Below are positions 2,946 through 64,000 of a stretch of 64,000 nucleotides of DNA, one piece after another. The notes below the pieces were generated by a model. The model ran no database searches, was not told where the DNA came from, and saw only the letters and a list, made by a program, of their open reading frames with translations. The stretch is from Amphiscolops sp. MND2022 (taxonomy: Eukaryota), in NCBI GenBank assembly GCA_964187785.1, contig OZ076409.1, positions 71,240,001-71,304,000 of the forward strand, written 5' to 3'. Every line of letters begins with the position of its first letter. Position 1 is the stretch's first letter. The position numbers and the translations under genes were made by a program.

Positions 2946-3244
2946 CTTCTAAAATCGTTAATCAAGAGTGTTTTTGGGTAGGTATATGTTGCATTAGTAC
3001 CAATTATAGCTTCATCAACAGTTTGCCAACGGCAAAAACGATGTCGTGATAATTCCGTTATAAGAATATTAATTAAAAAATTGTTTACAAAGTTGATTTT
3101 TTTCATTTGAAATGTGTCCTAATGCCACCAAATTGAATAAAATAATAAATGGTATTGACTAAAACTAAATAACATTGAAAAAGAAGATCAACATTTTTAT
3201 TAGGTCTCATTATGGAAGCTGAAACCTCACGTTTTAACTTGATT

Positions 3245-3366
3245 AACGTCAACGCCACATACTTTACATCAACGCCCACCGTCTGTGGGCATGCCGAGGC
3301 ATGCCCTTCGACGACGTATACCAAACAACCTCCATATCTACACCCGATTGCGGTAGCGGCTAGGTG
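3245..3366 (+). other. Representative conserved core (36 copies): two TCAACGCC repeats, palindrome, TTCGACGACGTAT, variable tail, GCTAGGTG
   Basis: The only block conserved in sequence between long and short units. Seen directly at every junction. Confidence 0.92.
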
Positions 3367-40325: not shown

Positions 40326-41597
40326 GCTAGGTGCCCGGATTTCTATTCATTAAAGTATGTTGCGCGTGTGGGTAGGGCCCCGTGGCGCGCTCTTGTGTCC
40401 CTGTTCTAAAATCTGTAATTTCCGGCAGCATTCTGAGCGATTTTCTAAACTATCCATACGATTCGGCTGAAATTTGGCACACGTACTCCCCTCGGCACGG
40501 TGAAGATGATTTGCTACTGACGTTTTTCCCGCAAAATTTTTTTTGTTGTCCAAAATAACGGTTTTTGGGGTAAAATTTTGAACTTTTTTTAAATTTCATC
40601 TTATATCTCGCCACGGGTTTACGCTAGCGCTTCAAAACCCTGCTAAAGAAAGCTTGCAAACTGTCTCAGGAATGCGGTGTGAAATTTTTAGCTCAATCGG
40701 ACTTAAACTCAGGGAGATATAGCGTTTTTCCGGAGCGGGGGGGTTTCATTTTTCTAACGGTCCAGCTTATCTTTGCCATTTTTTCGAAAATGCACTCGCC
40801 TAAAGGCCTCCCCTGGCCGGTTTTATCCCCAGCAAAACCATTTGGCCCTAAATACGGAGTTTCAGCGTTCCGGCATTCCCGGGCGAAAAGTTGTGGGACT
40901 TGGAAAATTTCAAAAATTTTCAAAAAAATTTTTTACCGTTATTTGGGCCCCCAAAGTGGGGGAAAAGACCCCCCAACCAGGAAAGCAAGTGAATGCATGT
41001 GGAAAGCCCTTGTTTAGACGAGAAAAATGGCGTTTAGAACGTTTTTTTATCTAAACTTGACATTGACTTTTGTCGTTTTGAAGGTGACCGTTAGATACAG
41101 AAAATTGATATTTTGAGTATTTATCCCATCTGAAAGCCATTGAGATACAACATGTTTTGCTCAAAACGTGTTTCATTGCAGTTTGGCTGTCCATTAACAC
41201 CCTTTGGTGTCTTTTGACGTAATTTTCTTTTCTATAATAACAATTTTTTTGTGTATTTATTCATTTTTTTCTCATCAAATAACTTGAAACAGTTGAGTAC
41301 ATTCCATCTCCCTTCCCGGGGGAGATGAGAATGTACTCGCTAAAGGTCAGGAAATACGATCTAAATCTTCCACAACACAAAAGGGATTGCAAATTGTTTC
41401 AGTTTGTCGCAGAAAACTTCTTTTTGCACTCTGTGACTCGACAAAGTGAACGTTTCTTACTTACTTTGAATCTCACCTTACCACAACTCATCTCTAACGT
41501 CAGCGCCCCCCTACTTGCATCAACGCCCCCCGTCCGTGGGCATGCCGAGGCATGCCCTTCGACGACGTATAGCAAAATATATTCGAACGCGGTAGCC
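40326..41597 (+). mobile_element. Isolated short-class unit, S3-related (1272 bp)
   Basis: Similar to the units at 16494-21610, with a distinct first ~110 bp. Flanked by long units at exact junctions. Confidence 0.6.
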
Positions 41598-43568
41598 GCT
41601 AGGTGCGGGGGGGTAACCCCAACAAATATATTGGAGGATTCGGGTAGGGTCCTGAATCCGATTTTAACTCTAATAGCTATCGATAGGAAATCGTGCAAAA
41701 ATTTCGGGATCTCGTGATCTAACCATAGGATTTTAAAGTTGGAGCGGCCCCCACCAGATTTTCCAAAGTTATTCGCCCCCCACCGGGTTCCAGCGTGATT
41801 GAAATATTTTGACGGGGTACACGGGCGACCGTTAGGGGTCATTTTGGGGGTAAAATTTATATCCGGTCGCATAACTTTTTTCCTGTTGGATTAAAACTTT
41901 GGGACCCTGCTAAAAGTTTCTTGACCGTGTTGCGGGGGCTCCGGAGGTCCAAACCAAATTTTTCTATCTTGAAGCTATCTCCAAGTACCCCCCCGCCCAA
42001 ACCGTTATTTTTCCGGAAACGCAGGTTTTTGACCCGGAAGGAGTCGTCTGAGCGCGGGGTCGTTAGGTGATGTATTGGGGACGGCCTTGAGACGAAGCGG
42101 GGGATATATAGTTTGCCGACCCCAGTTCACCTCCCGGACGGGAAATGACCGTTATATGAGCGGGAAAAATGCCCCCCTCCACGTTTTACCGCTATTTCCG
42201 GTGTGAAGGAGTGGGAGTAGCGCTTCGGGAGCCATATATCAAAAATAAGTTTAGACAAGGACCTATCGGAAACATGTAGTTTGGGACCCCCTGGACCAAC
42301 CCGTTAGCGGGAAATGGGGCTTCCGCCTCCTTTTTTTACTGCTAAAACCGTAAAATGGGCATTGAGGGGTAAATATCTCGTGAACGCGTGGAGCAATCGT
42401 GTCCATCACTACTACAAGGTTTCATACCCATGATATGGTGCCTTCAGGGGGGCAAACAGATTTCCGCTATCTATCACCGTTACCGACTTGGCCCCCCAGC
42501 CTAACCGCTATGTGACCGGAAATGTCACTTTTTGGGCCCAAAGGGTCGGTCCCAGCCGGGGAACGGTAGGTAACTTATTGTAGTACTCAATGAGACGAGA
42601 TGGGGGACATAGTTTCAGTCACCCCCCGTTACCCCTTGGGACCGGAAATGACCGTTATGAGGGTAAATTTGCATTTTTTATACTCTTTGAAGTGCATTTT
42701 TGTGCGGGAGGAGTGGTAATAGGTGCTTGGACACTATATGAGGTAAGGGAGGACGTGAGGCGAACATTCGGAAATAACCGTTATGTTGACCCTAAAGTAC
42801 CCCTGGTACCGTAAACGACCGGAAATGGTCAAATTTTGCGTCTATTGGGTACAAATGTTTGGTATTTTGTAGATAAAAGTATTATTAGGTGTTTCGACGG
42901 TCTGCAGTAGTGAACGTAGTCATGAAACCTTGTGGGGGGTAACGGTATATAGCACCGGAAGTCCAAACCGTTGGACACAGGATATGTTTTTGGTTTGAAA
43001 AGGTCTTTCGGTGTACTTTTGTCGACTATTATGGACTATGTTTAAAAATTACAGTTTTTCCATATAGTTTCAGAGACTCCGAAACCTCAATCAACATAAC
43101 CGTTACCTTTCGATAGCCTTTCAAGTTGGCCTGGTGTCAACTTGGAAGCGCTATCCTTCTAAAATCGTTATTCAAGAGTGTTTTTGGGTAGGTATATTTT
43201 GCATTAGTACCAATTAGAGCTTCATCAACAGTGTATCAACGACAAAAACTAAGCCGTCATGATTCCGTTATTAGAATAATAGTGAGCTAATTGTTGACAA
43301 AAATAATTTTTTCCATACAAAATGTGTCCTAAATGCCAGGAAACCTATTTACCTAACAAATGGTATTGATTGGAATGTATGTAACAGATTTATAAAAATT
43401 CAAATTGAATATTACGTTTCATTATGGAAGCTGAAACGTCATATTTCAGTTTAATTAACGTCCACGCCACATACTTTACATCAACGCCCACCGTCTGTGG
43501 GCATGCCGAGGCATGCCCTTCGACGACGTATACCAAATACATACCCAAACGACGCCCGTACATCCCGG
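41598..43568 (+). repeat. Single long-class unit (1971 bp) between two short units
   Basis: Typical long-class body between junctions 41598 and 43569. Confidence 0.95.
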
Positions 43569-44847
43569 GCTAGGTGCCGGGATTTCTATTCGATAAAGTA
43601 AGTTGCGCGGTTGGGTAGGGCCCCGTGAGCGCGCCCGTGTCTGTGTTTTTTGAACCTGAATTTGCGGGTGCCAAAATAGACGATTTCCTAAACTATCCAT
43701 ACGATTTTGCTCAAATTTGGCATACGGGTTCCTGAGACAGATATAAGAACTAATTCCTACTGGCGTTTTGCCCGGAAAATTTTTTTTGTTGCGCAAACTT
43801 GAAATTTTTGACAAAAAAATGCGATTTTTTTTGAAAATTTTTTTTTGAGAGGCCATATCTTTTTTCAGGGAGCCCGGAGCGGGACGCGTTAAACTGATTA
43901 TAAACTCTACGGTTCACGGGCTGTACGGGGAACCTATTTTTGTTGGAATCCGACTTGTAGATTTTGAGATATATTATCAAATTTGGGTGTTTTTTTCCAA
44001 TTTTTCGAAAAACCTGGTTTATCTCTGCCGTTTTTTGCCCAGATTTTTTTCTAGACCCTCTCCTAAAGGCCTCCCCTGGCCGGATTACGTCCCAGCAAAA
44101 CCATTTGGCCCTAAATACGAAGTTTCAGCGTTCTAGCATTCTCGGGCGAAAAGTTGTGGGACTTAGAAAAATTTTTTTAAAAACGCAAAATGTGTAAAGT
44201 CAACTTCAGGCCTCCCAAAGTCAAGGAACTTCCACACAACTAGGATTACAAGTGGATGCATGTGGAAAGTGCTTGAATAGACGAGGAAAATGAGCTATTA
44301 CAAAACTCTGTAGCTTAACCTGACGTTGACTTATGACAATTTTAGTGTGAGCTTGCTATGTGAGAAAAAATTTCAAAAATTGAAAATCGAAGCTAAGTCT
44401 CATCCAAAACTCATCGGAATACGTTCAATCCATTCCAAAGCGAGTTACTTCCAGCTATAGACTGCAGCAACACTATTCAAGACCATTGTACCCCTTTATA
44501 TTAGTTTTGACATTGTATTATTCATCCGAGAGCACAAAGCAGTTGAGTACATTCCATCTCCCTTTCGGGGGAGATGAGAATGTACTCGCTAAAGAACAGG
44601 TACTACAGCCAATTTTTGTATTTATGCGAAGCCATTCTATGCTATTGCACATAACAACTATGCTATTGACTTAATTTTGCCTACACTTTGCTATGACATA
44701 TGCTAAACGTTTGGTCCTTACAACAACATACACATGACTAACGTCAACACCACATACTGTTACCAACGCCCACCGTCCGTGGGCATGCCGAGGCATGCCC
44801 TTCGACGACGTATGCCAAATACCTTCCAGCGACGCCCGCGCTCCCCG
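43569..44847 (+). mobile_element. Short-class unit, subfamily S4 (1279 bp), most divergent
   Basis: Retains the left-end hairpin, central block (~44060-44170), GAGTACATT hairpin (44545) and core. Intervening sequence is strongly diverged. Confidence 0.6.
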
Positions 44848-47800
44848 GCTAGGTGCGGGGGGGTAACCCCAACAAAGATATTGGAGGATTCGGGTAGGGT
44901 CCTGAATCCGATCTTAGTACCGTCAGCTATCAGTAGAAAATTTCCCTCAAAAACCGGGATCTCGGGAACTAACCGTAGGATTTGAAAGTTGGAGCGGCCC
45001 CCACCAGATTTTCCCGAATAAATCGCCCCCCACCGGGCTCCATACCCCGGAAAATTTTTTTTTGGCCACACGGGCGACTGTTAGGGGGTCATTTTAGGGG
45101 TAAATTTCATATTGGTCCATATAACTTTTTTTCTGTTGGTTTAAAAGTTTGGGAACCCTACTAAAGGTTTTTCGACCATGTTGCAAGGGCTCCGGAGGTG
45201 CAAACCAAATTTTTCTATCTTGAAGCTATCTCCAAGTACCCCCCCGCTCAAACCGTTATTTTTCCGGAAACGCAGGTTTTTGACCCGGAAGGAGTCGTCT
45301 GAGCGCGGGGTCGTTAGGTGATGTTTTGGGGACGGCCTTGAGACAAAGTGGGGGACATGTAGTTTGCCGACCCCAGTTTACCCCCCGGACGGGAAATGAC
45401 CGTTATATCAGCGGGAAAAATGCCCCCTCCACGTTTTACCGCTATTTCCGGTGTGAAGGAGTGGGAGTAGCTCGTCGGGTGCCATATATCAAAAGTAGGT
45501 TCAGACAAGGACCTATCGGAAACATGTGGTTTGGGACCCCCTGACCCAACCCGTTAGCGGGAAATGGGGCTTCCGCCTCCTTTTTTTACGGTTAAAAACG
45601 GAAAATGGGCATTGAGGGATAAATATCTCGTGAACGCGTGGAGCTACGGTGTCCTTCACTACTACAAGGTTTCATACCCATGATATGGTGCCTTCAGGGG
45701 GGCAAACAGATTTCCGCTATCTATCACCGTTACGGACTTGGCCCCCCAGCCTAACCGCTATGTGACCGGAAATGTCACTTTTTGAGCCCAAAGGGTCGGT
45801 CCCAGCCAGGGAACGTTAGATAACTTATTGTAGTACTCATTGAGACGAGTTGGGGGACATAGTTTCAGTCACCCCCGTTACCCCTTGGGACCGGAAATGA
45901 CCGTTATGTGGGTAAAATTGGGATTTTTGTACTTTTTGAAGGGCAATTAGGTGCGGAAGGAGTGGTAATAGTTGCTTGGACACTATATGATGGAAGGGAG
46001 GACGTGAGGCGAACATTCGGACATAACCGTTATGTTGACCCTAAAGTCCCCCTGGTACCGTAAACGACCGGAAATGGTCAAATTTTGTGTCTATTGGGTA
46101 CAAATGTTTGGTATTTTGTAAATAAAAGTATCTATTAGGTGTTTCGACGGTCTGCAGTAGTGAACATAGTCATGAAACCTTGTCGGGGGGTAACGGTATA
46201 TAGCACCGGAAGTCCAAACCGTTAGAGTCGGGATAGGTTTTTTCGTTTTAAAATGTCTTTCGGCGTACTTTTGTCAACTAATATGGAATATTTTTTAAAA
46301 TAAAGTTTTTCCATATAGTTTCAGAGACTCCCAAACCTCAAACAACATAACCGTTACCTTATGATAGCCTTTCAAGTTGGCCTGGTGTCAACTTGGAAGG
46401 GCTATCGTTCAAAAATCGTTGATCAAGTGTGTTTTTGGGTATGTTTGAATCATTTTAGAATCAATTAGAGCTTCAAGAAAAATTTGCCAACGACAAAAAC
46501 TATGTCGTGATGATTCCGTTATTAGAGTAATAGTTAACAAAATGTTGATAAAGTTGATTTTGTACATTTCAAATGTGTCCTTTATGCCAGAAAACGTTTT
46601 TACCAAACTAATGATATTGATTGAATTGTATATAACAGGTAATAAAAGTTCAAATTGAATATTACGTTTCATTTTGTAAGCTGAAACGTGATATTATAGT
46701 TTAATTAACGTCAACGCCACATACTTTACATCAACGCCCACCGTCTGTGGGCATGCCGAGGCATGCCCTTCGACGACGTATACCAAACACCCTCCATATC
46801 TACACCCTAACCGCGGTAGCAGCTAGGTGCGGGGGGGAAACCCCAACTTTTTTCTTGGAGGAATCGGGTAGGGTCCTGATTCCGAGCTTAGTGCCGCCAG
46901 CTATCGTTAAAAACCCATACCTTTTAAACCCGATCTCGGGAACTAACCACGCCCCTTCTTTAATTTTTTGGCCCCCACTCACTTTTTGAGAGTAGATCGC
47001 CCCCCACTGGGTTCCAAGTTGGGCAAAAATGGAGGTCATGGGTAACGGGGACCGTTAAGGGGTAACTCAGGGGGTAAAATTTATTTTTTGCGTCATATCT
47101 TTTCCCCCCGTGGATTTAGCGCTTCCGGTCAGCAGACAAAACCTCATGTACGTGATAAGGGGCCTCCGTAGGTCCAAACAAAATTTTTCTATCATGCACC
47201 GTTACGGACTTGCCCCCCCGGCCCAACCGTTATTTTGCCGGAAATTGCCTTTTTTGACAGGGAAGGAGTCGTCTGAGCACGGAGTCGTTTGGTAATGTTT
47301 TGTAGTGCATCTGGAGACGTGTTGGGGGACATGTAGTTTGCCGACCCCAGTTTACCCCTCGGACGGGAAATGACCGTTATGTGAGTTTTAAAAATGCCCC
47401 CCTTCAATTTTCCCCGCAATTTCCGGTGTGAAGGAGTGGGAGTAGGGTGTCGGGTGCCATATATCAAAAGTAGGTTTAGACAAGGACCAACCGGAAACAT
47501 GTGGTTTCGGACCCCCTGACCCAACCCGTTAGCCGCTATTAGGGTGATCGCCTCCTTTTTTTGCTGTTAAAACCGGAAAACGGGCATTGAGGGGTAAATA
47601 TCTCGTGAACGCGTGGAGCAATCGTGTCCATCACTACTACAAGGTTTCATACCCATGATATGGTGCCTTCAGGGGGGCAAACAGATTACCGCTATCTATC
47701 ACCGTTACCGACTTGGCCCCCCAGCCTAACCGCTATGTGACCGGAAATTGCACTTTTTGAGCCCAAAGGGTCGATCCTAGCCGGGCAACGATAGGTAACA

Positions 47801-50800
47801 TATTGTAGTACTCATTGAGACGAGTTGGGGGATCTAGTTTCAGTCACCCCCGTTACCCCTTGAGACCGGAAATGACCGTTATGTGAGTAGAATTGCAATT
47901 TTTATACCTTTTGAAGGGCATTTAGAAGCGGAAGGAATGGTAATAGGTGCTTGGACACTATATGATGTAATGGAGGTCGTGAGGAGAGCATTCGGAAGTA
48001 ACCGTTACGTTGACCCCAAAGTCCCCCTGGTACCGTTAACAACCGGAAATGGCCAGATTTTGTGTTTGTAGGGTACAAATGTTTGGTATTTTATGGATAA
48101 AAGTACCTGGAAGGTGTTTTAAAGGCCTCCAGAAGTGAACATAGTCAAGAAACTTTGTGGGGGGTAACGGTATATAGCACCGGAAGTCCAAACCGTTAGT
48201 TACAGAATAGGTTTTTTGGTTTCAAAATGTCTTTAGGCGTAGTTTTGTGGGTGGAATCGTCATAATATCAACTAATACGGACTTTTTTCGGAAATAAAAT
48301 TTTTTCACATTAGTTTCAGGGACCTCCAATGTTTCAGTCAACATAACCGTTACATTTTGATAGCCTTTCAAGTTGGCCTGGTGTCAACTTGGAAGGGCTA
48401 TCCTTCTAAAATCGTTAATCAAGAGTGTTTTTGGGTAGGTATATGTTGCATTAGTACCAATTAGAGCTTCATCAACAGTTTGCCAACGGCAAAAACGATG
48501 TCGTGATAATTCCGTTATAAGAATATTAATTAACAAATTGTTTACAAAGTTGATTTTTTTCATTTAAAATGTGTCCTAATGCCACCAAATTGAATAAAAT
48601 AATAAATGGTATTGACTAAAACTAAATAACATTGAAAAAGAACATCAACATTTTTATTAGGTCTCATTATGGAAGCTGAAACCTCACGTTTTAACTTGAT
48701 TAACGTCAACGCCACATACTTTACATCAACGCCCACCGTCTGTGGGCATGCCGAGGCATGCCCTTCGACGACGTATACCAAACAACCTCCATATCTACAC
48801 CCGATTGCGGTAGCAGCTAGGTGCGGGGGGGTAACCCCAACTTTTTTCTTGGAGGAATCGGGTAGGGTCCTGATTCCGAGTTCAGTGCCGCCAGCTATCG
48901 TTAAAAACCTATACCTTTTAAACCCGATTTCGAGAACTAACCACGCCCCTTCTTTAATTTTTTGGCCCCCACTCACTTTTTGATAGTAGATCGCCCCCCA
49001 CTGGGTTCCAAGTTGGGCAAAAATGGAGGTCATGGGTAACGGGGACCGTTAAGGGGTAACTCAGGGGGTAAAATTTATTTTTTGCGTCATATCTTTTCCC
49101 CCCGTGGATTTAGCGCTTCCGGTCAGCAGACAAAACCTCATGTACGTGATACGGGGCCTCCGTAGGTCCAAACAAAATTTTTCTATCATGCACCGTTACG
49201 GACTTGCCCCCCCGGCCCAACCGTTATTTTGCCGGAAATTGCACTTTTTGACCGGGAAGGAGTCGTCTGAGCACGGAGTCGTTTGGTAATGTTTTGTAGT
49301 GCATCTGGAGACGTGTTGGGGGACATGTAGTTTGCCGGCCCCAGTTTACCCCCCGGACGGGAAATGACCGTTATGTCAGTTTTAAAATTACCCCCTTCAA
49401 TTTTCCCCGTTATTTCCGGTGTGAAGGAGTGGGAGTAGCGCGTCGGGTGCCATATATCAAAAGTAGGTTTAGACAAGGACCAACTGGAAACATGTGGTTT
49501 GGGACCCCCTGACCCAACCCGTTAGCCGTTATAAGGGTGATCGCCTCCTTTTTTTACACTCAAAACCGGAAAACGGGTATTGAGGGGTAAATATCTCGTG
49601 AACGCGTGGAGCAATCGTGTCCATCACTACTACAAGGTTTCATACCCATGATATGGTGCCTTCAGGGGGGCAAACAGATTACCGCTATCTATCACCGTTA
49701 CGGACTTGGCCCCCCAGCCTAACCGCTATGTGACCGGAAATTGCACTTTTTGAGCCCAAAGGGTCGATCCTAGCCGGGCAACGTTAGGTAACTTATTGTA
49801 GTACTCATTGAGACGAGTTGGGGGATCTAGTTTCAGTCACCCCCCGTTACCCCTTAGGACCGGAAATGACCGTTATGTGAGTAGAATTGCAATTTTTATA
49901 CCTTTTGAAGGGCATTTAGGTGCGGAAGGAATGGTAATAGGTGCTTGGACACTATATGATGTAATGGAGGTCGTGAGGAGAGCATTCAGAAGTAACCGTT
50001 ACGTTGACCCCAAAGTCCCCCTGGTACCGTTAACAACCGGAAATGGCCAAATTTTGTGTTTATAGGGTACAAATGTTTGGTATGTTATGGATACAAGTAC
50101 CAGGAAGGTGTTTTAAAGGCCTCCAGAAGTGAACATTGTCATGAAACTTTGTGGGGGGTAACGGTATATAGCTCCGGAAGTCCAAACCGTTAGTTACAGA
50201 ATAGGTTTTTTGGTTTCAAAATGTCTTTAGGCGTAGTTTTGTGGGTTGAATCGTCATAATATCAACTAATACGGACTTTTTTCGGAAATAAAATTTTTTC
50301 ACATTAGTTTCAGGGACCTCCAATGTTTCAGTCAACATAACCGTTACATTTTGATAGCCTTTCAAGTTGGCCTGGTGTCAACTTGGAAGGGCTATCCTTC
50401 TAAAATCGTTAATCAAGAGTGTTTTTGGGTAGGTATATGTTGCTTTAGTACCAATTAGAGCTTCATCAACAGGTTGCCAACGGCAAAAACGATGTCGTGA
50501 TAATTCCGTTATAAGAATATTAATTAACAAATTGTTTCCAAAGTTGATTTTTTCCATTCGAAGTGTGTCCTAATGCCACCAAATTGAATAAAATAATAAA
50601 TGGTATTGACTAAAACTAAATAACATTGAAAAAGAAGCTCAACATTTTTAATAGGTCTCATTATGGAAGCTGAAACCTCACGTTTTAACTTAATTAACGT
50701 CAACGCCACATACTTTACATCAACGCCCACCGTCTGTGGGCATGCCGAGGCATGCCCTTCGACGACGTATACCAATTACATATATATCTACACCCACCCG

Positions 50801-53800
50801 CGGTAGCAGCTAGGTGCGGGGGGGTAACCCCTACAAAGATATTGGAGGATTCGGGTAGGGTCCTGAATCCGATTTTAACTCTAATAGCTATCGATAGGAA
50901 ATCTTGCAAAAATTTCGGGATCTCGTGATCTAACCATAGGATTTTAAAGTTGGAGCGGCCCCCACCAGATTTTCCAAAGTTATTCGCCCCCCACCGGGTT
51001 CCAGCGTGATTGAAATATTTTGACGGGGTACACGGGCGACCGTTAGGGGTCATTTTGGGGGTAAAATTTATATCCGGTCGCATAACTTTTTTCCTGTTGG
51101 TTTAAAACTTTGGGACCCTGCTAAAAGTTTCTTGACCGTGTTGCAGTAGCTCCGGAGGTCCAAACCAAATTTTTCTATCTTGAAGCTATCTCCAAGTACC
51201 CCCCGCCCAAACCGTTATTTTTCCGGAAACGCAGGTTTTTGACCCGGAAGGAGTCGTCTGAGCGCGGGGTCGTTAGGTGATGTATTGGGGACGGCCTTGA
51301 GACGAAGCGGGGGACATGTAGTTTGCCGACCCCTGTTTACCCCCCGGACGGGAAATGACCGTTATTTGAGCGGGAAAAATGCCCCCCTCCACGTTTTACC
51401 GCTATTTCCGGTGTGAAGGAGTAGGCGTAGCGCGTCGGGTGTTATATAACAAAAGTAGGTTTAGACAAGGACCTATCGGAAACATGTAGTTTGGGACCCC
51501 CTGGACCAACCCGTTAGCGGGAAATGGGGCTTCCGCCTCCTTTTTTTACTGCTAAAACCGTAAAATGGGCATTGAGGTGTAAATATCTCGTGAACGCGTG
51601 GAGCTACGGTGTCCATCACTACTACAAGGTTTCATACCCATGATATGGTGCCTTCAGGGGGGCAAACAGATTTCCGCTATCTATCACCGTTACCGACTTG
51701 GCCCCCCAGCCTAACCGCTATGTGACCGGAAATGTCAATTTTTGAGCCCAAAGGGTCGGTCCCAGCCGGGGAACGTTAGGTAACTTATTGTAGTACTCAA
51801 TGAGACGAGTTGGGGGATATAGTTTCAGTCACCCCCCGTTACCCCTTGAGACCGGAAATGACCGTTATGTGGGTAAAATTGCAATTTTTATACTTTTTCA
51901 AGTGTATTTAGGTGCGGAAGGCGTGGTAATAGGTGCTTGGACACTATATGAGGTAAGGGAGGACGTGAGGCGAGCTTTCGGAATTAACCGTTATGCTGAC
52001 CCTAAAGTCCCCCTGGTACCGGAAGTGACCCGTAATGGTCAAATTTTGTGTTTAAAGGGTACAAATGTTTGGTGTTTTATGGATAACAGTGCCTATTAGG
52101 TGTTTCGACGGTCTGCAGTCGTGAACATAGTCATGAAACCTTGTGGGGGGTAACGGTTTATAGCACCGGAAGTCCAAACCGTTGGAGACAGGATAAGTTT
52201 TTTGGTTTTAAAATGTCTTTCGGCCTACTTTTGTCGACTATTATGGACTATTTTTGGAAAATAAAGTTTTTCCAAATAGTTTCAGAGACTCCGAAACCTC
52301 AACCAACATAACCGTTACCTTATGATAGCCTTTCAAGTTGGCCTGGTGTCAACTTGGAAGGGCTATCCTTCAAAAATCAATAATCAAGTGTGTTTTTGAG
52401 TATGTTTGTATTACTTTAGAATCAATTAGAGCTTCAAGAAAAGTTAGCCAACGATAAAACTATGTCGTGATGATTCCGTTATTAGAATAATAGTTAACAA
52501 AATATTAATAAAGTTGATTTTTTACACTTTAAATGTGTTCTAAATGCCAGAAAACTTCTTTACCAAACAAATGGAATTGATTGAATTGTATATAACAGCT
52601 AATAAAACTTCAAATTGAATATTAGGCTTCATTATGGAAGCTGAAATGTCATATTATAGTTTCATTAACGTCAACGCCACATACTTTACATCAACGCCCA
52701 CCGTCTGTGGGCATGCCGAGGCATGCCCTTCGACGACGTATACCAAATTCCTCCAACACAACACCCCCGAGCGCGTTAGCAGCTAGGTGCGGGGGGGTAA
52801 CCCCAACTTTTTTCTTGGAGGAATCGGGTAGGGTCCTGATTCCGAGTTCAGTGCCGCCAGCTATCGTTAAAAACCCATACCTTTTAAACCCGATCTCGGG
52901 AACTAACCACGCCCCTTCTTTAATTTTTTGGCCCCCACTCACTTTTTGAGAGTAGATCGCCCCCCATTGGGTTCGATGTTGGGCAAAAATGGAGGTCATG
53001 GGTAACGGGGACCGTTAAGGGGTAACTCAGGGGGTAAAATTTATTTTTTGCGTCATATCTTTTCCCCCCGTGGATTTAGCGCTTCCGGTCAGCAGACAAA
53101 ACCTCATGTACGTGATACGGGGCCTCCGTAGGTCCAAACAAAATTTTTCTATCATGCACCGTTACGGACTTGCCCCCCCGGCCCAACCGTTATTTTGCCG
53201 GAAATTGCACTTTTTGACCGGGAAGGAGTCGTCTGAGCACGGAGTCGTTTGGTAATGTTTTGTAGTGCATCTGGAGACGTGTTGGGGGACATGTAGTTTG
53301 CCGGCCCCAGTTTACCCCCCGGACGGGAAATGACCGTTATGTGAGTTTTAAAATTACCCCCCTTCAATTTTCCCCGTTATTTCCGGTGTGAAGGAGTGGG
53401 AGTAGCGCGTCGGGTGCCATATATCAAAAGTAGGTTTAGACAAGGACCAACCGGAAACATGTGGTTTGGGACCCCCTGACCCAACCCGTTAGCCGTTATA
53501 AGGGTGATCGCCTCCTTTTTTTACACTCAAAACCGGAAAACGGGTATTGAGGGGTAAATATCTCGTGAACGCGTGGAGCAATCGTGTCCATCACTACTAC
53601 AAGGTTTCATACCCATGATATGGTGCCTTCAGGGGGGCAAACAGATTACCGCTATCTATCACCGTTACGGACTTGGCCCCCCAGCCCAACCGCTATGTGA
53701 CCGGAAATGTCACTTTTTGAGCCCAAAGGGTCGGTCCCAGTCTGGGAACGTTAGGTAACTTATTGTAGTACTCATTGAGACGAGTTGGGGGACATAGTTT

Positions 53801-56800
53801 CAGTCACCCCCCGTTACCCCTTAGGACCGGAAATGACCGTTATGTGAGTGAAATTGCAATTTTTATACTTTTTGAAAGGCATTTAGGTGCAGAAGGAGTG
53901 GTAATAGGTGCTTGGACACTATATAATGATAGGGAGGACGTGAGGCGAGCATTCGAAAAAAACCGTTATGTTGACCCCAAAGTCCCCCAGGTACCGTAAA
54001 TGACCGGAAATGGTCAAATTTTGTGTTTAAAGGGTACAAATGTTTGGTGTTTTATGGATAACAGTACCTATTAGGTGTTTCGACGGTATGCAGTTGTGAA
54101 CATAGTCATGAAACCTTGTGGGGGGTAACGGTATATAGCACCGGAAGTCCAAAACGGTGGAGACAGGATAAGTTTTTTGGTTTTAAAACGTCTTTCGGCC
54201 TACTTTTGTCGACTATTATGGTCTATTTTTGAAAAATAAAATTTTTCCATATAGTTTCAGAGACTCCGAAACCTCAACCAACATAACCGTTACCTTATGA
54301 TAGCCTTTCAAGTTGGCCTGGTGTCAACTTGGAAGGGCTATCCTTCAAAAATCATTAATCAAGTGTGTTTTTGAGTATGTTTGTATTACTTTAGAATCAA
54401 TTAGAGCTTCAAGAAAAGTTTGCCAACGACAAAAACTATGTCGTGATGATTCCGTTATTGTTAACAAAGTTTTAAAAACGTTGATTTTTTACATTTCAAA
54501 TGTGTCCTAAATGCCAGAAAACCTCTTTACCAAACAAATGGTATTGATTGAATTGTATATAACAGCTAATAAAAGTTCAAACTGAATAATACGTTTCATT
54601 TTGGAAGCTGAAACGTCATTTTATAGTTTCATTAACGTCAACGCCACATACTTTACATCAACGCCCAACGTCCGTAGGCATGCCGAGGCATGCCTTTCGA
54701 CGACGTATACCAAATTCCTTTAACACAACACCCCCGAGCGCGGTAGCAGCTAGGTGCGGGGGGGAAACCCCATCCCTTATCTTGGAGGATTCGGGTAGGG
54801 TCCTGAATCCGAGTTCAGTGCCGCCAGCTCTCAGTAGAAATCTGGGAAATTTTTTGCGATCTCGTGATCTAACCATAGGATTTTAAAGTTGGAGCGGCCC
54901 CCACCAGATTTTCCAAAGTTATTCGCCCCCCACCGGGTTCCAGCGTGATTGAAATATTTTGACGGGGTACACGGGCGACCGTTAGGGGTCATTTTGGGGG
55001 TAAAATTTATATCCGGTCGCATAACTTTTTTTCTGTTGATTTAAAACTTTAGGACCCTGCTAAAAGTTTCTTGACCATGTTGCAGGGGCTCCGGAGGTCC
55101 AAACCAAATTTTTCTATCTTGAAGCTATCTCCAAGTACCCCCCCGCCCAAACCGTTATTTTTCCGGAAACGCAGGTTTTTGACCCGGAAGGAGTCGTCTG
55201 AGCGCGGGGTCGTTAGGTGATGTATTGGGGACGGCCTTGAGACGAAGCGGGGGATATATAGTTTGCCGACCCCAGTTTACCCCCCGGACGGGAAATGACC
55301 GTTATTTGAGCGGGAAAAATGCCCCCCTCCACGTTTTTCCGCTATTTCCGGTGTGAAGGAGTGGGAGTAGCGCGTCGGGTATAATATAACAAAAGTAGGT
55401 TTAGACAAGGACCTATCGGAAACATGTAGTTTGAGACCCCCTGGACCAACCCGTTAGCGGGAAATGGGGCTTCCGCTTCCTTTTTTTACTGCTAAAACCG
55501 TAAAATGGGCATTAAGGGGTAAATATCTCGTGAACGCGTGGAGCTACAGTGTCCATCACTACTACAAGGTTTCATACCCATGATATGGTGCCTTCAGGGG
55601 GGCAAACAGATTTCCGCTATCTATCACCGTTACCGACTTGGCCCCCCAGCCTAACCGCTATGTGACCGGAAATGTCACTTTTTGAGCCCAAAGGGTCGGT
55701 CCCAGCCGGGGAACGTTAGGTAACTTATTGTAGTACTCAATGAGACGAGTTGGGGGATATAGTTTCAGTCACCCCCCGTTACCCGTTGGGACCGGAAATG
55801 ACCGTTATGTGGGTAAAATTGCAATTTTTATACTTTTTCAAGTGTATTTAGGTGCGGAAGGAGTGGTAATAGGTGCTTGGACACTATATGAAGGAAGGGA
55901 GGACGTGAGGCGAGCATTCGAAAATAACCGTTATATTGACCCCGAAGTCCCCGTGATACCGGAAGTGACCCGTAATGGTCAAATTTTGTGTTTAAAAGTT
56001 ACAAATGTTTGGTGTTCAATGGATAACAGTACCTATTAGGTGTTTCGACGGTCTGCAGTCGTGAACATAGTCATGAAACCTTGTGGGGGGTAACGGTATA
56101 TAGCACCGGAAGTCCAAACCGTTGGAGACAGGATAAGTTTTTCGGTTTGAAAATGTCTTTCGGCCTACTTTTGTTGACTATTATGGACTATTTTTGAAAA
56201 ATAAATTTTTTCCAAATAGTTTCAGAGACTCCGAAACCTCAACCAACATAACCGTTACCTTATGATAGCCTTTCAAGTTGGCCTGGTGTCAACTTGGAAG
56301 GGCTATCCTTCAAAAGTCATTAATCAAGTTTGTTTTTGAGTATGTTTGTTTTACTTTAGAATCAATTAGAGCTTCAAGAAAATATTGCCAACGATAAAAA
56401 CTATGTCGTGATGATTCCGTTCTTAGAATAATAGTTAAAAAATTTTGATAAAGTTGATTTTTTTACATTTCAAATCTGTCCTAAATGCCAGAAAACCTGT
56501 TTACCAAACAAATGGTATTGATTGAAATGTATAAAACAGCTAATAAAAGTTCAAATTGAATTTTACGTTTCATTATGGAAGCTGAAACGTCATATTATAG
56601 ATTCATTACTGTCAACGCCACATACTTTACATCAACGCCCACCGTCCGTAGGCATGCCGAGGCATGCCTTTCGACGACGTATACCAAATTCCACCCACAC
56701 AACACCCCCGAGCGCGGTAGCAGCTAGGTGCGGGGGGGAAACCCCAACAAAATTTTTGGAGGATTCGGGTAGGGTCCTGAATCCGAGTTCAGTGCTGCCA

Positions 56801-59800
56801 GCTTTCGTTAAGAAAATTTGGATAGGATTCGGGATCTCGTGATCTAACCATAGGATTTTAAAGTTGGAGCGGCCCCCACCAGATTTTCCGAAAATTAGCG
56901 CCCCCCACCGGGTTCCATACCCCGGAAAATTTTTTTCTGGCCACACGGGCGACCGTTAGGGGGTCATTTTAGGGGTAAAATTCATATTGGGCCACATAAC
57001 TTTTTTTCTGTTGATTTAAAACTTTGGGACCCTGCTAAAAGTTTCTTGGCCGTGTTGCAGGGGCCCCGGAGGTCCAAACCAAATTTTTCTATCTTGAAGC
57101 TATCTCCAAGTACCCCCCCCCCCGCCCAAAACGTTATTTTTCCGGAAACGCAGGTTTTTGACCCGGAAGGAGTCGTCGGAGCGCGGGGTCGTTAGGTGAT
57201 GTATTGGGGACGGCCTTGAGACGAAGTGGGGGACATGCAGTTTGCCAACCCCAGTTTACCCCCCGGACGGGAAATGACCGTTATATGAGCGGGAAAAATG
57301 TCCCCCTCCACGTTTTACCGCTATTTCCGGTGTGAAGGAATGGGAGTAGCGCGTCGGGTGCCATATATCAAAAGTAGGTTTAGACAAGGATCTATCGGAA
57401 ACATGTGGTTTGGGACCCCCTAGACCAACCCGTTAGCAGGAAATGGGGCTTCCGGCCCGTTTTTTTACGGTTAAAAACGGAAAATGGGCATTGAGGGGTA
57501 AATATCTCGTGAACGCGTGGAGCTACGGTGTCCTTCACTACTTCAAGGTTTCATACCCATGATATGGTGCCTTCAGGGGGGCAAACAGATTTCCGCTATC
57601 TATCACCGTTACGGACTTGGCCCCCCAGCCTAACCGTTAAGTGACCGGAAATGTCATATTTTGAGCCCAAAGGGTCGGTCCCAGCCAGGGAACGTTAGGT
57701 AACTTATTGTAGTACTCATTGAGACGAGTTGGGGGACATAGTTTCAGTCACCCCCCGTTACCCCTTGGGACCGGAAATGACCGTTATGTGAGTAAATTTG
57801 CCATTTTTGTCCTATTTGAAGGGCATTTAGACGCGGAAGGAGTGGTAACAGGTGCTTGGACACTATATGAGGTAAGGGAGGACGTGAGGCGAGCATTCGG
57901 ACATAACCGTTATGTTGACCCTAAAGTCCCCCTGGTACCGTAAACGACCGGAAATGGTCAAATTTCGTATTTTTAGGGTACAAATGTTTGGTATTTTATG
58001 GAATAAAGTACATGGAAGGTGTTTCAAAGGCATCCAGAAATGAACATAGTCATGAAACCTTGAGGGGGGTAACGGTATATAACACCGGAAGTCCAAGCCG
58101 TTGGACACAGTATAGGTTTTTGGGTTTTAAAATGCTTATGAACGTACATTTGTGGGTTGAATTGTTCTAATATTGACTATTTTCGATATTTTTTGACATT
58201 AAAGGTTTTTCCAATAGTTTCAGGGACCTCCAAAGCTTCAATCAACATAACCTTTACATTATGATAGCCTTTCAAGTTGGCCTGGTGTCAACTTGGAAGG
58301 GCTATCCTTCACAAATCGTATATCAAGTGTGTTTTTGAGTAGGTTTTTATCACTTTAGTATCAAGTAGAGCTTAATCATTAGTTTGCCAACGACAAAAAC
58401 CATGTCGTGATGATTCCGTTAGTAGAAGAATAGTTAACAACTTGTTGACAAAGTTGATTTTTTTGCATTTAAAATGTTTCCTAAATGCCAGGAAAACGAT
58501 TTACGTTATAAATGGTACTGATTGACCCAAATAACAGTTAAAAAAAGTTAAACATTATTTTTTCGTTTCATTATAGAAGCTGAAACCTTACGTTTTAACT
58601 TAATTAACGTCAACGCCACATACTTTACATCAACGCCCACCGTCTGTGGGCATGCCGAGGCATGCCCTTCGACGACGTATACCAAAATCCAATATATCTA
58701 CACCCAATTGCGGTAGCAGCTAGGTGCGGGGGGGTAACCCCAACAAATATATTGGAGGATTCGGGTAGGGTCCTGAATCCGATTTTAACTCTAATAGCTA
58801 TCGATAGGAAATCTTGCAAAAATTTCGGGATCTCGTGATCTAACCATAGGATTTTAAAGTTGGAGCGGCCCCCACCAGATTTTCCGAAAATTAGCGCCCC
58901 CCACCGGGTTCCATACCCCGGAAAATTTTTTTCTGGCCACACGGGCGACCGTTAGGGGTCATTTTAGGGGTAAAATTTATATAATGTCGCATAACTTTTT
59001 TCCTGTTGGATTAAAACTTTAGGACCCTGCTAAAAGTTTCTTGACCATGTTGCAGGGGCCCCGGAGGTCCAAACCAAATTTTTCTATCTTGAAGCTATCT
59101 CCAAGTACCCCCCCGCCCAAACCGTTATTTTTCCGGAAACGCCGGTTTTTGACCCGGAAGGAGTCGTCTGAGCGCGGGATCGTTAGGTGATCTTTTGGGG
59201 ACGGTCTCGATACGAAGCGGGGGATATATAGTTTGCCGACCCCAGTTTACCCCCCGCACGGGAAATGACCGTTATATGAGCGGGAAAAATGCCCCCCTCC
59301 ACGTTTTACCGCTATTTCCGGTGTGAAGGAGTGGGAGTAGCGCGTCGGGTGTTATATAACAAAAGTAGGTTTAGACAAGGACCTATCGGAAACATGTAGT
59401 TTGGGACCCCCTGGTCCAACCCGTTAGCGGGAAATGGGGCTTCCGCCTCCTTTTTTTACTGCTAAAACCGTAAAATGGGCATTGAGGGGTAAATATCTCG
59501 TGAACGCGTGGAGCAATCGTGTCCATCACTACTACAAGGTTTCATACCCATGATATGGTGCCTTCAGAGGGCAAACAGATTTCCGCTATCTATCACCGTT
59601 ACCGACTTGGCCCCCCAGCCTAACCGCTATGTGACCGGAAATGTCACTTTTTGAGCCCAAAGGGTCGGTCCCAGCCGGGGAACGTTAGGTAACTTATTGT
59701 AGTACTCAATGAGACGAGTTGGGGGATATAGTTTCAGTCACCCCCGTTACCCCTTGGGACCGGAAATGACCGTTATGTGGGTAAAATTGCAATTTTTATA

Positions 59801-62675
59801 CTTTTTCAAGTGTATTTAGGTGCGGAAGGCGTGGTAATAGGTGCTTGGACACTATATGATGATAGGGAGGACGTGAGGCGAGCATTCAAAAATAACCGTT
59901 ATGTTGACCCCAAAGTCCCCCTGGTACCGTAAACGACCGGAAATGGTCAAATTTTGCGTTTTTAGGGTACAAATGATTAGAATTTTATGGAAAAAAGTAC
60001 CTGGTCGGTGTTTCAACGGCTTGCAGTAGTGAACATAGTCATGAAACCTTGTGGGGGGTAACGGTATATAGCACCGGAAGTCCAAACCGTTGGAGACAGG
60101 ATAGGTATTTTGGTTTTAAAATGCCTATAAGCGTACTTTTGTGGGTTGAATCGTTTCAATATCGACTAATTTGGATATTTTTTTGACATTGAAGGTTTTT
60201 TCAATAGTTTCAGGGACCTCCAATGCTTCAATCAATATAACCGTTACCTTATGATAGCCTTTCAAGTTGGCCTGGTGTCAACTTGGAAGGGCTATCCTTC
60301 GAAAATCGTAATTCAAGTGTGTTTTTGAGTACGTTTTTATTACTTTAATATCAATTAGAGCCTAATCATTAGTTTGCCAACGACAAAAACTATGACGTGA
60401 TGATACCGTTAGTAGAAGAATAGTTAACAATTTGTTTGATTTTTTTTGCATTTTAAATGTTTCCTAAATGCCAGGAAAACATTTTATCTAATGAATGGTA
60501 CTGGTTGAACCCAAGTATCATTTGAAAAAAAGTTAAACATTGTTTTTTCGTTTCATTATGGAAGCTGAAACCTCACGTTTTAGGTCACTTAACGTCAACG
60601 CCACATACTTTACATCAACGTCCGCCGTCTGTGGGCATGCCGAGGCATGCCCTTCGACGACGTATACCAATTACATATATATCTACACCCACCCGCGGTA
60701 GCAGCTAGGTGCGGGGGGGTAACCCCAACAAATATATTGGAGGATTCGGGTAGGGTCCTGAATCCGATTTTAACTCTAATAGCTATCGATAGGAAATCTT
60801 GCAAAAATTTCGGGATCTCGTGATCTAACCATAGGATTTTAAAGTTGGAGCGGCCCCCACCAGATTTTCCGAAAATTAGCGCCCCCCACCGGGTTCCAGC
60901 GTGATTGAAATATTTTGACGGGGTACACGGGCGACCGTTAGGGGTCGTTTTGGGGGTAAAATTTATATCCGGTCGCATAACTTTTTTTCTGTTGATTTAA
61001 AACTTTGGAACCCTGCTAAAAGTTTCTTGACCGTGTTGCAGGGGCCCCGAAGGTCCAAACCAAATTTTTCTATCTTGAAGCTATCTCCAAGTACCCCCCC
61101 GCTCAAACCGTTATTTTTCCGGAAACGCAGGTTTTTGACCCGGAAGGAGTCGTCTGAGCGCGGGGTCGTTAGGTGATGTATTGGGGACGGCCTTGAGACG
61201 AAGTGGGGGACAAGTAGTTTGCCAAACTCAATTTACCCCCCGGACGGGAAATGACCGTTATATGAGCGTGTAAAATGCCCCCCTCCACGTTTTACCGCTA
61301 TTTCCGGTGTGAAGGAGTGGGAGTAGCGCGTCGGGTGTTATATAACAAAAGTAGGTTTAGACAAGGACCTATCGGAAACATGTAGTTTGGGACCCCCTGG
61401 ACCAACCCGTTAGCGGGAAATGGGGCTTCCGCCTCCTTTTTTTAGTGCTAAAACCGTAAAATGGGCATTGAGGGGTAAATATCTCGTGAACGCGTGGAGC
61501 AATCGTGTCCATCACTACTACAAGGTTTCATACCCATGATATGGTGCCTTCAGGGGGGCAAACAGATTTCCGCTATCTATCACCGTTACCGACTTGGCCC
61601 CCCAGCCTAACCGCTATGTGACCGGAAATGTCACTTTTTGAGCCCAAAGGGTCGGTCCCAGCCGGGGAACGTCAGGTAACTTATTGTAGTACTCAATGAG
61701 ACGAGTTGGGGGATATAGTTTCAGTCACCCCCCGTTACACCTTGGGACCGGAAATGACCGTTATGTGGGTAAAATTGCAATTTTTATACTTTTTCAAGTG
61801 TATTTAGGTGCGGAAGGAGTGGTAATAGGTGCTTGGACACTATATGAGGTAAGGGAGGACGTGAGGCGAGCATTCAGAAATAACCGTTATGTTGACCCTA
61901 AAGTCCCCCTGGTACCGTAAACGACCGGAAATGGTCAAATTTTGTGTCTATTGGGTACAAATGTTTTGTATTTTGTAGATAAAAGTATCTATTAGGTGTT
62001 TCGACGGTCTACAGTAGTGAACATAGTCATGAAACCTTGTGGGGGGTAACGGTATATAGCACCGGAAGTCAAACCGTTGGAGACAGCTTAGGTTTTTTGG
62101 TTTTAAAATGTCTTTCGGCGTAATTTTTTCGACTCTTGTGGACTATTTTTAAAAATTAAAGTTTTTCCATATAGTTTCAGAGACTCCGAAACCTCAACCA
62201 ACATAACCGTTACCTTATGATAGCCTTTCAAGTTGGCCTGGTGTCAACTTGGAAGCGCTATCCTTCTGAAATCGTTAATCAAGAGTGTTTTTGGGTAGGT
62301 ATATATTGCATTAGTACCAATTAGAGCTTCATCAACAGTGTATCAACGACAAAAACTATGCCGTCATGATTCCGTTATTAGAATCATAGTGAGCAAATTG
62401 TTGAAAAAAATGGTTTTTTCCATACAAAATGTGTCCTAAATGCCAGGAAACCTATTTACCTAACAAATGGTATTAATTGGAATGTTTGTAACAGATTTAT
62501 AAAAGTTCAAATTGAATATTACATTTCATTATGGAAGCTGAAACGTCATATTTTAGTTTAATTAACGTCAACGCCACACACTTTACATCAACGCCCACCG
62601 TCTGTGGGCATGCCGAGGCATGCCCTTCGACGACGTATACCAAATACATACCCAAACGACGCCCGTACATTCCGG
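44848..62675 (+). repeat. Nine long-class units (1967-1996 bp), three with a divergent left arm (46822, 48816, 52782)
   Basis: Junction spacing. The divergent arm starts ...aaccccaacttttttcttggaggaatcggg. Confidence 0.95.
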
Positions 62676-64000
62676 GCTAGGTGGATGTTATTTTATAATA
62701 ATTAAAGTGTTTTTTCCGGAGTTTGTGGCTTTGGAAAAAACAGAAGTCGAGAAATTTGGCACTCCAGGCTGATCCTGTCTAGTCCAAAATATACTATCAA
62801 AAATGACCCATTTTTCTCCGATCTCGAAACCCAACCGTAGGATTTGGCTGAAAATTTGCATGTGGCTCCAAGTCAATGAGTGATGAAAAAGTGTAGAAGT
62901 GACTTTTCCTGGGAAAATTGTTTTTGTTGCACTTTTTGCGCAATTTTTGGCCGATTGTTGCGTTTTTTATGTCACTTTCGACTTTTCAGGCAAAAAACTC
63001 ATGGATGCTTTGATCCTAGCGCATCAAGTGTTACGACCAAAAAGTTACAACATGTTCTTTTACGTATGCTGAGAAAATTTGGTCGCAATCGTATTACCCC
63101 CCACTGAGATAGAGGGGAACTTCCGGTGGATTTTAGCACCCTGAAAACGAGGACCTCCTCAATTTCAGCAGGAAGCGGTAGTTTTAGCGTTCTCATACCC
63201 TGCTGACGTTTTGTTGGGCATATTGAGTTAGTCATGATATCATGTGTTCAGTTCACCCCCATCACCCCCTGGACCGGAAATGAACTTTTTGTGCACTATC
63301 ATACCGGAAGTCTCCAATTTCAACGTTAAGCAGTCCTTGTACGAGCAACTACCAGGACATCAAAATTGAAGTACCACCTAAAGTCAATGCAGTGACTACG
63401 TGTTGTCCAGTCATAGGTTCCGCAATGACCGGAAATGGGGTCAAATCCCCCTTTTTTGTTGCTTTTTAACAATTTGACTAGTGTTTGGTCCACATTCAAG
63501 TCACATAATTCAATTGAACCAGTGTGAGCATAAACTGTATGTTCACTGCGTAGACGTAACTGACACTGACAGGTACCGGAAGTAACCCCCCCATAACCGG
63601 AAGTTGTCATTTTTGACCGGAAATGGTCCAAAATGTAGCGTAAAATCAGTTTTTCACTGCTTTTTGAAGTCAATTTAATTCATTTTCAATATTGGCGAGC
63701 TTGTATTCAGGTTCGTTTTTGTTACCCGTGCACTTTGCAACAAATATACATCTGTAAAGTTTTCTCCATAATATCTTCGGATAGAGAAATAACGTGTTTT
63801 CGGGACTTTTTTCAAAAATATTACACTATATCTGTCATTTTTACCCAAAGTTTTTCAACAGTACAACCACAGTGGTTAGTCTCTGCCCAAATGTATGCCT
63901 AACAAAACTATTTGGCCCATTGACCTCAGTTTGAGCGTTCCAGCTTTGCGTGGTCATAAGCTAAGGGACTTGAAAAATTTTCAAACTTTTTCAAAAAAAC
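62676..64000 (+). mobile_element. Third unit type, truncated by the window edge
   Basis: Starts GCTAGGTGGATG. Has gatctcgaaacccaaccgtaggatttggctgaaaattt (~62820), many ACCGGAART motifs, and a diverged copy of the short-class central block at ~63905-64000. Confidence 0.6.

What the first reader, a model, noticed from the sequence alone, without database searches (positions are those of the whole stretch)
62676..64000. Terminal third-type unit predicts a ~2.0 kb length reached with different sequence
Seen: this unit does not align with the long class, yet at ~63909 it has tatttggccc...gagcgttccagc...gggacttgaaaaattttc, a diverged copy of the short-class central block. In unit S1 that block starts at 603, which is 764 bp before the next junction. 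Inference: the next junction should fall near 64670, giving ~1997 bp. That would be the long size built from a short-type right half plus ~715 extra bp.
Basis: partly seen in the sequence, partly recalled or inferred. Interest (0 to 1): 0.7.

Follow-up and report, generated by a model that had tools for sequence, protein, structure and literature searches.

The report
Third mini-transposon type in shuffled array
The last repeat in this window is a third family of small, non-coding, hairpin-ended jumping elements that sit head to tail in a long mixed array, and it looks like the short family with about 700 extra bases in its middle, but its full length cannot be read here.

Summary
The window is a head-to-tail array of non-coding units: 26 long (1967-1996 bp), 8 short (1270-1288), one 878-bp duplicate, and the terminal unit U36 (62681 onward). 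All junctions read CTAG|GTG.

U36 is not a short-type right half joined to foreign sequence. It is short-type on both sides (62819-63126 and 63783-64000). Between them lie about four degenerate ~170-bp modules, partly related to long-class modules. Its head differs in sequence but keeps the two-hairpin layout of long-class heads.

Nine short-type right arms, one from an independent metagenome contig (L005), put the next junction at 64654-64690 (1974-2010 bp). I could not test this: no genome or reads were available. The match to 2.0 kb is suggestive only (crude chance 4-7%, post hoc).

The stronger result concerns the array. Sequence linkage is strong within units and drops to zero at the junction, so units are reshuffled there. 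The most likely reading is non-autonomous rolling-circle-type elements joined at their own end junction. They fail the defining end tests for Helitron1 and Helitron2, and no enzyme gene was found.

The parts
1..64000 (+). Head-to-tail array of non-coding units: 36 junctions, 35 complete units (26 long, 8 short, one 878-bp duplicate) and the terminal unit U36. It runs off the left edge of the window.
   Evidence: no ORF reaches 160 aa; no tRNA or tmRNA gene
62607..62624 (+). Conserved core hairpin (two GGCATGCC palindromes) of the preceding long unit U35. In all units it ends 44-59 nt before the junction.
   Evidence: 36 copies; the flanking pair is G-C in 31 and A-T in 5 of 36 sequences, never mismatched
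62661..62677 (+). Small terminal hairpin of the U35 tail, directly before TAG
62676..62683 (+). Junction GCTAG|GTG. The working boundary is 62680|62681; the true break could lie anywhere inside the shared motif.
   Evidence: C-x-A-G-G-T-G in 37 of 37 junctions including L005; linkage break
62688..62701 (+). U36 head hairpin A (5-bp stem), in the same register as the GGGG/CCCC hairpin of long-class and L005 heads
62708..62742 (+). U36 head hairpin B (15-bp stem with G-T pairs), in the same register as the long-class hairpin with the TAGGGT loop, but unrelated in sequence
   Evidence: z -4.87, 0 of 200 shuffles; no short-class head profile hit
62819..63126 (+). Short-type modules 1 and 2
   Evidence: module 1: 40.5 bits; module 2: 9.9 and 7.6 bits; each 0 of 100 shuffles; alignment
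63129..63782 (+). Internal extra segment of about four degenerate ~170-bp modules. Three carry ACCGGAAAT (63273, 63428, 63616), a motif family also found in long units and absent from the two short units checked.
63783..64000 (+). Short-type module-2 end and central block (ATTTGGCCC at 63910, GGGACTTG at 63965), cut by the window edge

Best explanation
U36 is a third, deeply diverged family of the same non-autonomous mobile element that builds this array. Each unit has a two-hairpin or one-hairpin head after GTG, a body of degenerate ~170-bp modules, a conserved core hairpin, a short variable tail and CTAG. U36 differs from the short family by four internal modules plus ~30 bp of head, so it is probably ~1.97-2.01 kb long; the length steps come from module number. 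SHOWN: the anatomy, homology on both sides of the insert, covarying hairpins, and reshuffling of units at the junction rather than in the longer conserved core. INFERRED: an enzyme encoded elsewhere, most likely a rolling-circle HUH (Helitron-like) transposase, copies units as circles closed at CTAG|GTG. Because every junction in the array recreates that sequence, it cuts and rejoins there, so circles of any family enter in register. Ordinary recombination between unit bodies then makes the internal mosaics and occasional local duplications.
For: Both flanks of the insert match the short-class profile, and the same module-2 end is matched twice ~680-715 bp apart. The head has the long-class hairpin register with unrelated sequence. 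Linkage among 21 long-long pairs: neighbouring 170-column windows within a unit rho 0.18-0.78 (10 of 11 with p<0.05), across the junction -0.08. Mutual information p=0.0002 for all 4 within-unit neighbour pairs and p=0.39 for tail versus next head. In 7 of 8 class switches the tail belongs to the upstream class. Divergence does not track array distance (rho -0.006; U05 and U35 are 99% identical 30 units apart). There are compensatory changes in the core and head hairpins, and the + strand folds better in 18 of 21 distinct heads. All 35 complete units end in CTAG with a subterminal hairpin. The palindromic core lies 44-59 nt from the end, like the 38-60 bp of HINE subTIRs (PMC4067079). Helitron circles with precise end-to-end junctions are cleaved there and serve as donors (PMC5876387). 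An independent contig, L005, shows a short-type arm joined to a long-type head at the same kind of junction.
Against: No transposase or recombinase gene was found in the window, so the enzyme is a guess. Units start GTG, not TC; no 11-18-nt terminal inverted repeat was found in 10 units tested (longest 8 nt); L005 ends CGAG. Adjacent long units are slightly more alike than random (p 0.014) and short units cluster (runs p 0.011), so local duplication or multimer insertion also acts. The U26 tail is closer to long-class tails. Modules 2 and 6 of U36 give no z>=3 match to single short units in a global comparison; only the profile supports them. The end of U36 was not seen.
Confidence: 0.5

Rival explanations
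1. Same units, but moved by a tyrosine recombinase (Crypton-like). Circles carrying one copy of a short crossover core (AGGTG or GCTAGGTG) recombine with the same core at an existing junction, and cassettes of several families stack up as in an integron or att array.
For: One copy of a 5-8-bp motif per junction, found nowhere else in the window, and the linkage break sits there. Cryptons lack TIRs, have 4-6-bp terminal direct repeats and are proposed to move as circles (PMC3212892); some CryptonV families are target-specific (PMC8869645).
Against: By eye, no conserved 11-13-bp inverted arms flank the motif; flanking columns vary. Strand-biased hairpins with G-T pairs fit single-stranded substrates. 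PMC3212892 found no terminal repeats in animal Cryptons. No recombinase gene was found.
Confidence: 0.2
2. An ordinary large satellite that descends from dead elements and now evolves only by unequal crossing-over and gene conversion; U36 is an old stray monomer or simply the element at the array's edge.
For: Long units are internal mosaics (first versus last window rho -0.02), neighbours are slightly more alike than random, short units cluster, and U18 is a 99.9% local duplication. Helitron-derived arrays with monomers up to 1,996 nt are known (PMC12001565).
Against: Crossing-over at random positions, or in the near-identical core of about 50 bp, would keep each tail linked to the next head. 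The data show the reverse. Three families of background-level overall identity share precise junctions.
Confidence: 0.15
3. Unit length is actively constrained to two size classes (~1.28 and ~1.98 kb), for example by packaging of circles or by chromatin spacing, and U36 reached the long class independently.
For: Predicted 1974-2010 bp against 1967-1996; crude chance 4-7%. Long units have their own three-module duplication (modules 2-3 versus 5-6, z 10-15) that U36 lacks, so the routes to 2 kb differ. Short units that are only 66-75% identical stay within 1270-1288 bp, with weak compensation (p 0.036-0.048).
Against: One extrapolated, post hoc data point. Module-sized steps make coincidences likelier. 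No compensation in long units (p 0.25). A shared ancestral module count is not excluded. No conserved viral-type origin nonanucleotide: one match per strand in 64 kb.
Confidence: 0.2
4. The units are tandem small-RNA genes (spliced-leader-like: AG|GT, hairpin, U-rich gap, hairpin) or GT...AG intron-like elements.
For: Every junction reads AG|GT; long-class heads have a hairpin-gap-hairpin layout; 6 of 36 heads carry an Sm-like RAT4-6GR motif (motif recalled).
Against: 30 of 36 heads, U36 among them, lack the motif. Sequence before and after the AG|GT is unlinked. Heads are less conserved than the upstream core. No Rfam family reached its threshold in 58000-64000 (best E 0.2). L005 has GAG, a poor 3' splice site.
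Confidence: 0.04

Closest known systems
Helitron-derived tandem arrays, e.g. Xenopus laevis Heli1Xen1/Heli2Xen (PMC12001565, passages) and the tandem or directly adjacent Helitrons noted for bat, silkworm and maize (PMC4067079 and PMC5876387, passages)
   Same: Non-coding units up to ~2 kb, head to tail; ~166-170-bp internal repeats; hairpin and CTAG at the 3' end.
   Different: The Xenopus arrays have 2-7 monomers. Here at least 36 units of three families are interleaved and reshuffled at the junction, and the 5' end is GTG.
HINE / DINE-1 non-autonomous Helentrons (HLE2) (PMC4067079, PMC11417382, PMC5148889; passages)
   Same: Palindromic motif 38-60 bp from the 3' end (44-59 here), a small palindrome near the end, hairpins at both ends, central repeats.
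   Different: No matching subTIR at the 5' end, and no T-run ends or TT target at the junction.
Crypton tyrosine-recombinase DNA transposons (PMC3212892, passages)
   Same: No TIRs; one short shared motif at each boundary; circle model.
   Different: No recombinase and no inverted binding arms seen; the passages read describe no tandem mixed arrays.
KolobokP multimers (PMC9587614, passages)
   Same: Tandem multimers, with a proposed circle that targets its own repeat.
   Different: KolobokP has 450-660-bp terminal direct repeats, TIRs and TSDs; here the shared stretch is ~120 bp and class switches occur at the short junction motif.

Membership tests
HLE1 (canonical Helitron) | 3' end CTRR preceded by a short hairpin | tested here: met
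   35 of 35 complete units end CTAG; small tail hairpins in most of the 11 tails folded, at variable distance. L005 ends CGAG. The end of U36 was not seen.
HLE1 (canonical Helitron) | 5' end TC | tested here: not met
   36 of 36 units start GTG after CTAG
HLE1 (canonical Helitron) | Insertion between A and T without TSD | not testable with these tools
   No flanks or empty sites; no genome held
HLE1 (canonical Helitron) | Autonomous Rep-helicase partner with the same ends | not testable with these tools
   None in the window; no genome to search
HLE2 (Helitron2/Helentron, HINE) | Asymmetric terminal inverted repeats of 11-18 nt | tested here: not met
   Longest head-versus-tail reverse-complement match was 5-8 nt in 10 units tested, either orientation
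HLE2 (Helitron2/Helentron, HINE) | Hairpins at both ends; palindromic motif 38-60 bp from the 3' end | tested here: met
   core ends 44-59 nt before the junction. Short-class heads fold weakly (z -1.3 to +0.9).
HLE2 (Helitron2/Helentron, HINE) | T-rich termini and TT insertion site | tested here: not met
   Junction is C-x-AG|GTG in 37 of 37; outer flanks not available
Crypton | 4-6-bp terminal direct repeat, no TIR | tested here: inconclusive
   One shared motif per junction fits, but it cannot be told from fixed element ends without an empty site
Crypton | Tyrosine-recombinase partner | not testable with these tools
   No Pfam family in 12 reading frames tested; no genome
Replitron | Short terminal direct repeats, right-end hairpin, Y1 Rep partner (PMC10288648, passages) | tested here: inconclusive
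   Hairpin present; direct repeat not separable from the junction; no partner found
KolobokP | 450-660-bp terminal direct repeats, TIRs, TTAA-type TSD | tested here: not met
   Long and short classes share only the last ~120 bp and a weak piece of the head; no TIR

The most novel reading that the evidence does not exclude
A eukaryotic cassette-like array: a trans-acting enzyme inserts circular, non-coding units of at least three sequence families precisely at a self-regenerating CTAG|GTG junction, recognises their heads by hairpin shape rather than sequence, and favours two unit sizes (~1.28 and ~2.0 kb) that different families reach by different module arrangements. The same architecture occurs in a second, diverged source (L005).
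Probability: 0.15. Interest if true: 0.75.

Novelty: new variant of a known kind. Interest (0 to 1): 0.42.

Why it matters
The third unit alone is a modest result: one more family in a transposon-derived array. It is useful because it shows which features the mobilising enzyme appears to need: GTG after CTAG and a hairpin-shaped head are kept while the head sequence is not. The array is the more interesting object. Tandem Helitron arrays are usually explained by rolling-circle run-on or unequal crossing-over. Here the statistics point to repeated joining of different families at one short junction. If confirmed, this would be a self-targeting DNA transposon system that builds satellite-scale arrays, and finding its enzyme would give a site-specific integrator with a short target. 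A real two-class size rule would be more surprising still, but the evidence for it is thin.

Tried and rejected
Reading beyond the window: no genome is held; the run search listed none ('none was listed', not evidence of absence), so no reads could be laid; the record behind L005 is not held for further search.

Pattern scans: the core was not found in viral contigs or prokaryote genomes and the short-class block was not found in viral contigs. The short-class long hairpin gave 1 viral hit, L008, with no further similarity. The metagenome scan gave 7 loci: 1 is a true homologue (L005) and 6 are chance hairpins with no other similarity. No BLASTN match in phages.

Coding and RNA genes: no Pfam family in 12 frames (6 from U36, 3 from U35, 3 junction-spanning); nothing in Rfam for 58000-64000; no tRNA; no hammerhead core or poly(A)/poly(T) run of 12 or more, which argues against Penelope, retrozyme and LINE/SINE arrays.

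Tandem Repeats Finder does not see the ~170-bp modules in 60000-64000, and autocorrelation gives only weak peaks near 170 and 500 bp. The iterative module profile was seeded with a U36 module and can reinforce itself, so module counts are approximate.

The idea that L005's upstream unit is of the U36 type is weak: they share a 10-11-bp gap and group at 64% bootstrap, but are only 57% identical. Simple colinearity of U36 with the long class is not supported. A resemblance of short motifs to kinetoplast minicircle blocks (recalled, no call) was dropped because order and strand did not fit.

Look-ups of earlier findings by place and sequence returned nothing.

Full report
WHAT IS THERE. The 64-kb window is one head-to-tail array. 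The 18-bp core GGCATGCCGAGGCATGCC occurs 36 times, always on the + strand, each followed by CTAGGTG. Cutting at CTAG|GTG gives 35 complete units: 26 long (L, 1967-1996 bp, 80-99% identical), 8 short (S, 1270-1288 bp, 66-94%), one 878-bp unit (U18) and the terminal unit U36 (62681-64000). No ORF reaches 160 aa. Twelve frames tested hit no Pfam family, Rfam found nothing in 58000-64000, and there is no tRNA gene. The core or block patterns were absent from the prokaryote and viral collections. A eukaryotic nuclear origin is my inference; the host is unknown. CpG is not depleted (o/e 0.97).

THE OBSERVATION. The motifs and the arithmetic are correct. The block match is not chance (E 1e-16; 46 bits, 0 of 100 shuffles).

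ANATOMY OF U36. A profile of the 8 S units matches U36 twice: profile 99-404 to U36 132-448 (E 1e-16) and profile 381-595 to U36 1103-1317 (E 3e-14). Module by module, S1 scores 40.5 bits, S2 9.9, and the S2 end is found at both 387-446 and 1103-1128; each beats 100 of 100 shuffles (alignments). U36 is therefore an S-type element with an internal extra segment at about 63129-63782.

That segment holds about four degenerate modules, with anchors spaced 155-188 bp. Three carry ACCGGAAAT, a motif seen in the 4 L units checked and in neither of the 2 S units checked. One module is 71% identical over 90 bp to L unit U28 (E 5e-8). U36 is not colinear with L: L has its own duplication (modules 2-3 versus 5-6, z 10-15) that U36 lacks. 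Against this reading, U36 modules 2 and 6 show no z>=3 match to single S units in a global comparison, and the modules are too decayed for Tandem Repeats Finder.

The head of U36 has no S-profile hit and lacks the TAGGGT-type loop found in 34 of 35 other window heads and in L005. It still folds into a small hairpin at 8-21 and a long one at 28-62, the register of L and L005 heads (z -4.87, 0 of 200 shuffles). This supports U36 being a true unit that starts at the junction.

THE PREDICTION. From the block to the unit end is 749-780 bp in 8 of 8 S units and 744 bp in L005. L005 is an independent 1172-bp metagenome contig, the 1 true homologue among 7 hits. Its arm is 63-68% identical to the S arms, and it joins an L-like head at CGAG|GTG. 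These arms put the next junction at 64654-64690 and the unit at 1974-2010 bp. I rate an intact end in that range at about 60-65%; U36 lies outside the S group (55-61% identity over the block region), so its arm may differ. It could not be checked.

Whether landing in the L range means anything is open. A crude null (S length plus 1 to 6-10 modules) gives 3.9-6.6%. Segment-length compensation has p 0.036 for 8 S units, 0.048 for 5 of them, and 0.25 for 26 L units.

HOW THE ARRAY IS BUILT. Among the 26 L units divergence does not grow with distance (rho -0.006), and closest relatives are often 10-31 units apart. For the 21 L-L neighbours, adjacent windows within a unit are linked (rho 0.18-0.78, 10 of 11 significant). 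Across the junction the value is -0.08, and tail versus next head is 0.00. A haplotype test agrees: p=0.0002 for 4 of 4 within-unit neighbour pairs, p=0.39 across the junction, and p=0.32 with all 35 junctions. At 7 of 8 class switches the tail belongs to the upstream class; U26 is the exception. Switching therefore happens at the short junction motif, not in the much longer conserved core where homologous recombination would act.

Results that point the other way: neighbours are slightly more alike than random (p 0.014), S units cluster (p 0.011), L bodies are mosaics, and U18 is a near-perfect local duplication. Ordinary recombination acts as well.

The hairpins look functional. The pair flanking the core is G-C in 31 and A-T in 5 of 36 sequences, with no mismatch, and 3 L heads carry a double compensatory change. 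These may each be a single event. The + strand folds better in 18 of 21 distinct heads.

MECHANISM. Shown: precise junctions, junction-specific reshuffling, conserved hairpins, modular bodies. Inferred: circles closed at CTAG|GTG are cut and rejoined at the identical junctions in the array by an enzyme encoded elsewhere. I favour an HUH rolling-circle transposase (0.5) because of the hairpin-CTAG end, the strand-biased hairpins and the ~170-bp central repeats. Helraiser circles with precise junctions are cleaved there and act as donors (PMC5876387, passages). A tyrosine recombinase is the main rival (0.2).

COMPARISON WITH WHAT IS KNOWN. It works most like non-autonomous Helitron-like elements but is not filed as one. 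HLE1 needs 5' TC, and HLE2 needs short TIRs and T|T sites (PMC11417382, passages; PMC5148889, passages); these tests failed. The 3' layout resembles HINEs (PMC4067079, passages). Precedents for arrays: Xenopus, 2-7 monomers of 121-1,996 nt and 166-bp minisatellites (PMC12001565, passages); Hydractinia subtelomeric repeats with a 372-bp unit and locally related copies (PMC11934779, first two of six parts); KolobokP multimers (PMC9587614, passages). Also read as passages: PMC3212892, PMC8869645, PMC10288648, PMC13085455, PMC13404089. The plant centromeric Helitron paper was seen only as a citation in these.

The core sequence is in no paper of the held library. Ten searches showed no description of a multi-family array reshuffled at one junction. 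I read only listings for most hits, opened no supplements, and could not search Repbase, Dfam or subscription journals, so the family may already be catalogued.

VERDICT. The unit is a third family of a transposon-derived array, and its length remains a prediction. Novelty: new variant of a known kind. Interest 0.42, mostly for the junction-specific shuffling of several families.

Noticed in passing
window 28701-30454 (U17/U18): An 876-bp stretch spanning a junction is repeated in tandem at 99.9% identity, creating the odd 878-bp unit U18. It is either a very recent local duplication or an assembly artefact.
   Followed up: partly
window 16499-21615 (U10-U13): U13 has the 5' part of U11/U12 and the 3' part of U10: a recombinant within the short class.
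   Followed up: no
window 61013-61828 and equivalent in other long units: Long units carry an old internal duplication (unit positions 305-618 versus 807-1120, 62% identical, period ~502 bp, three modules).
   Followed up: partly
short units ~300-316 bp before the junction (e.g. window ~1065-1115); long units ~460 bp before (e.g. window ~62220-62265): Each class has its own long, strong internal hairpin of unrelated sequence; the short-class one is conserved with changes in L005 551-610. Its role is unexplained.
   Followed up: partly
L005 884-1172: The unit after the junction in L005 has a long-type head, then module 1 that also matches the short-class profile, then long-type sequence again, which links the two classes by ancestry.
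   Followed up: partly
window 1-88: The tail at the left edge is the same as U01's own tail, so the unit before the window is probably another U01-type short unit.
   Followed up: no
window 7143-7595, 9114-9566, 32146-32625, 41399-41872, 48560-49033 (- strand): Five ORFs of 150-159 aa cross junctions on the minus strand; the 4 tested have no Pfam match and are probably chance frames.
   Followed up: partly
window 63816: One match to a recalled ssDNA-virus origin nonanucleotide pattern lies in U36; it is not among the unit's strongest hairpins and is not repeated in other units, so it is treated as chance.
   Followed up: partly
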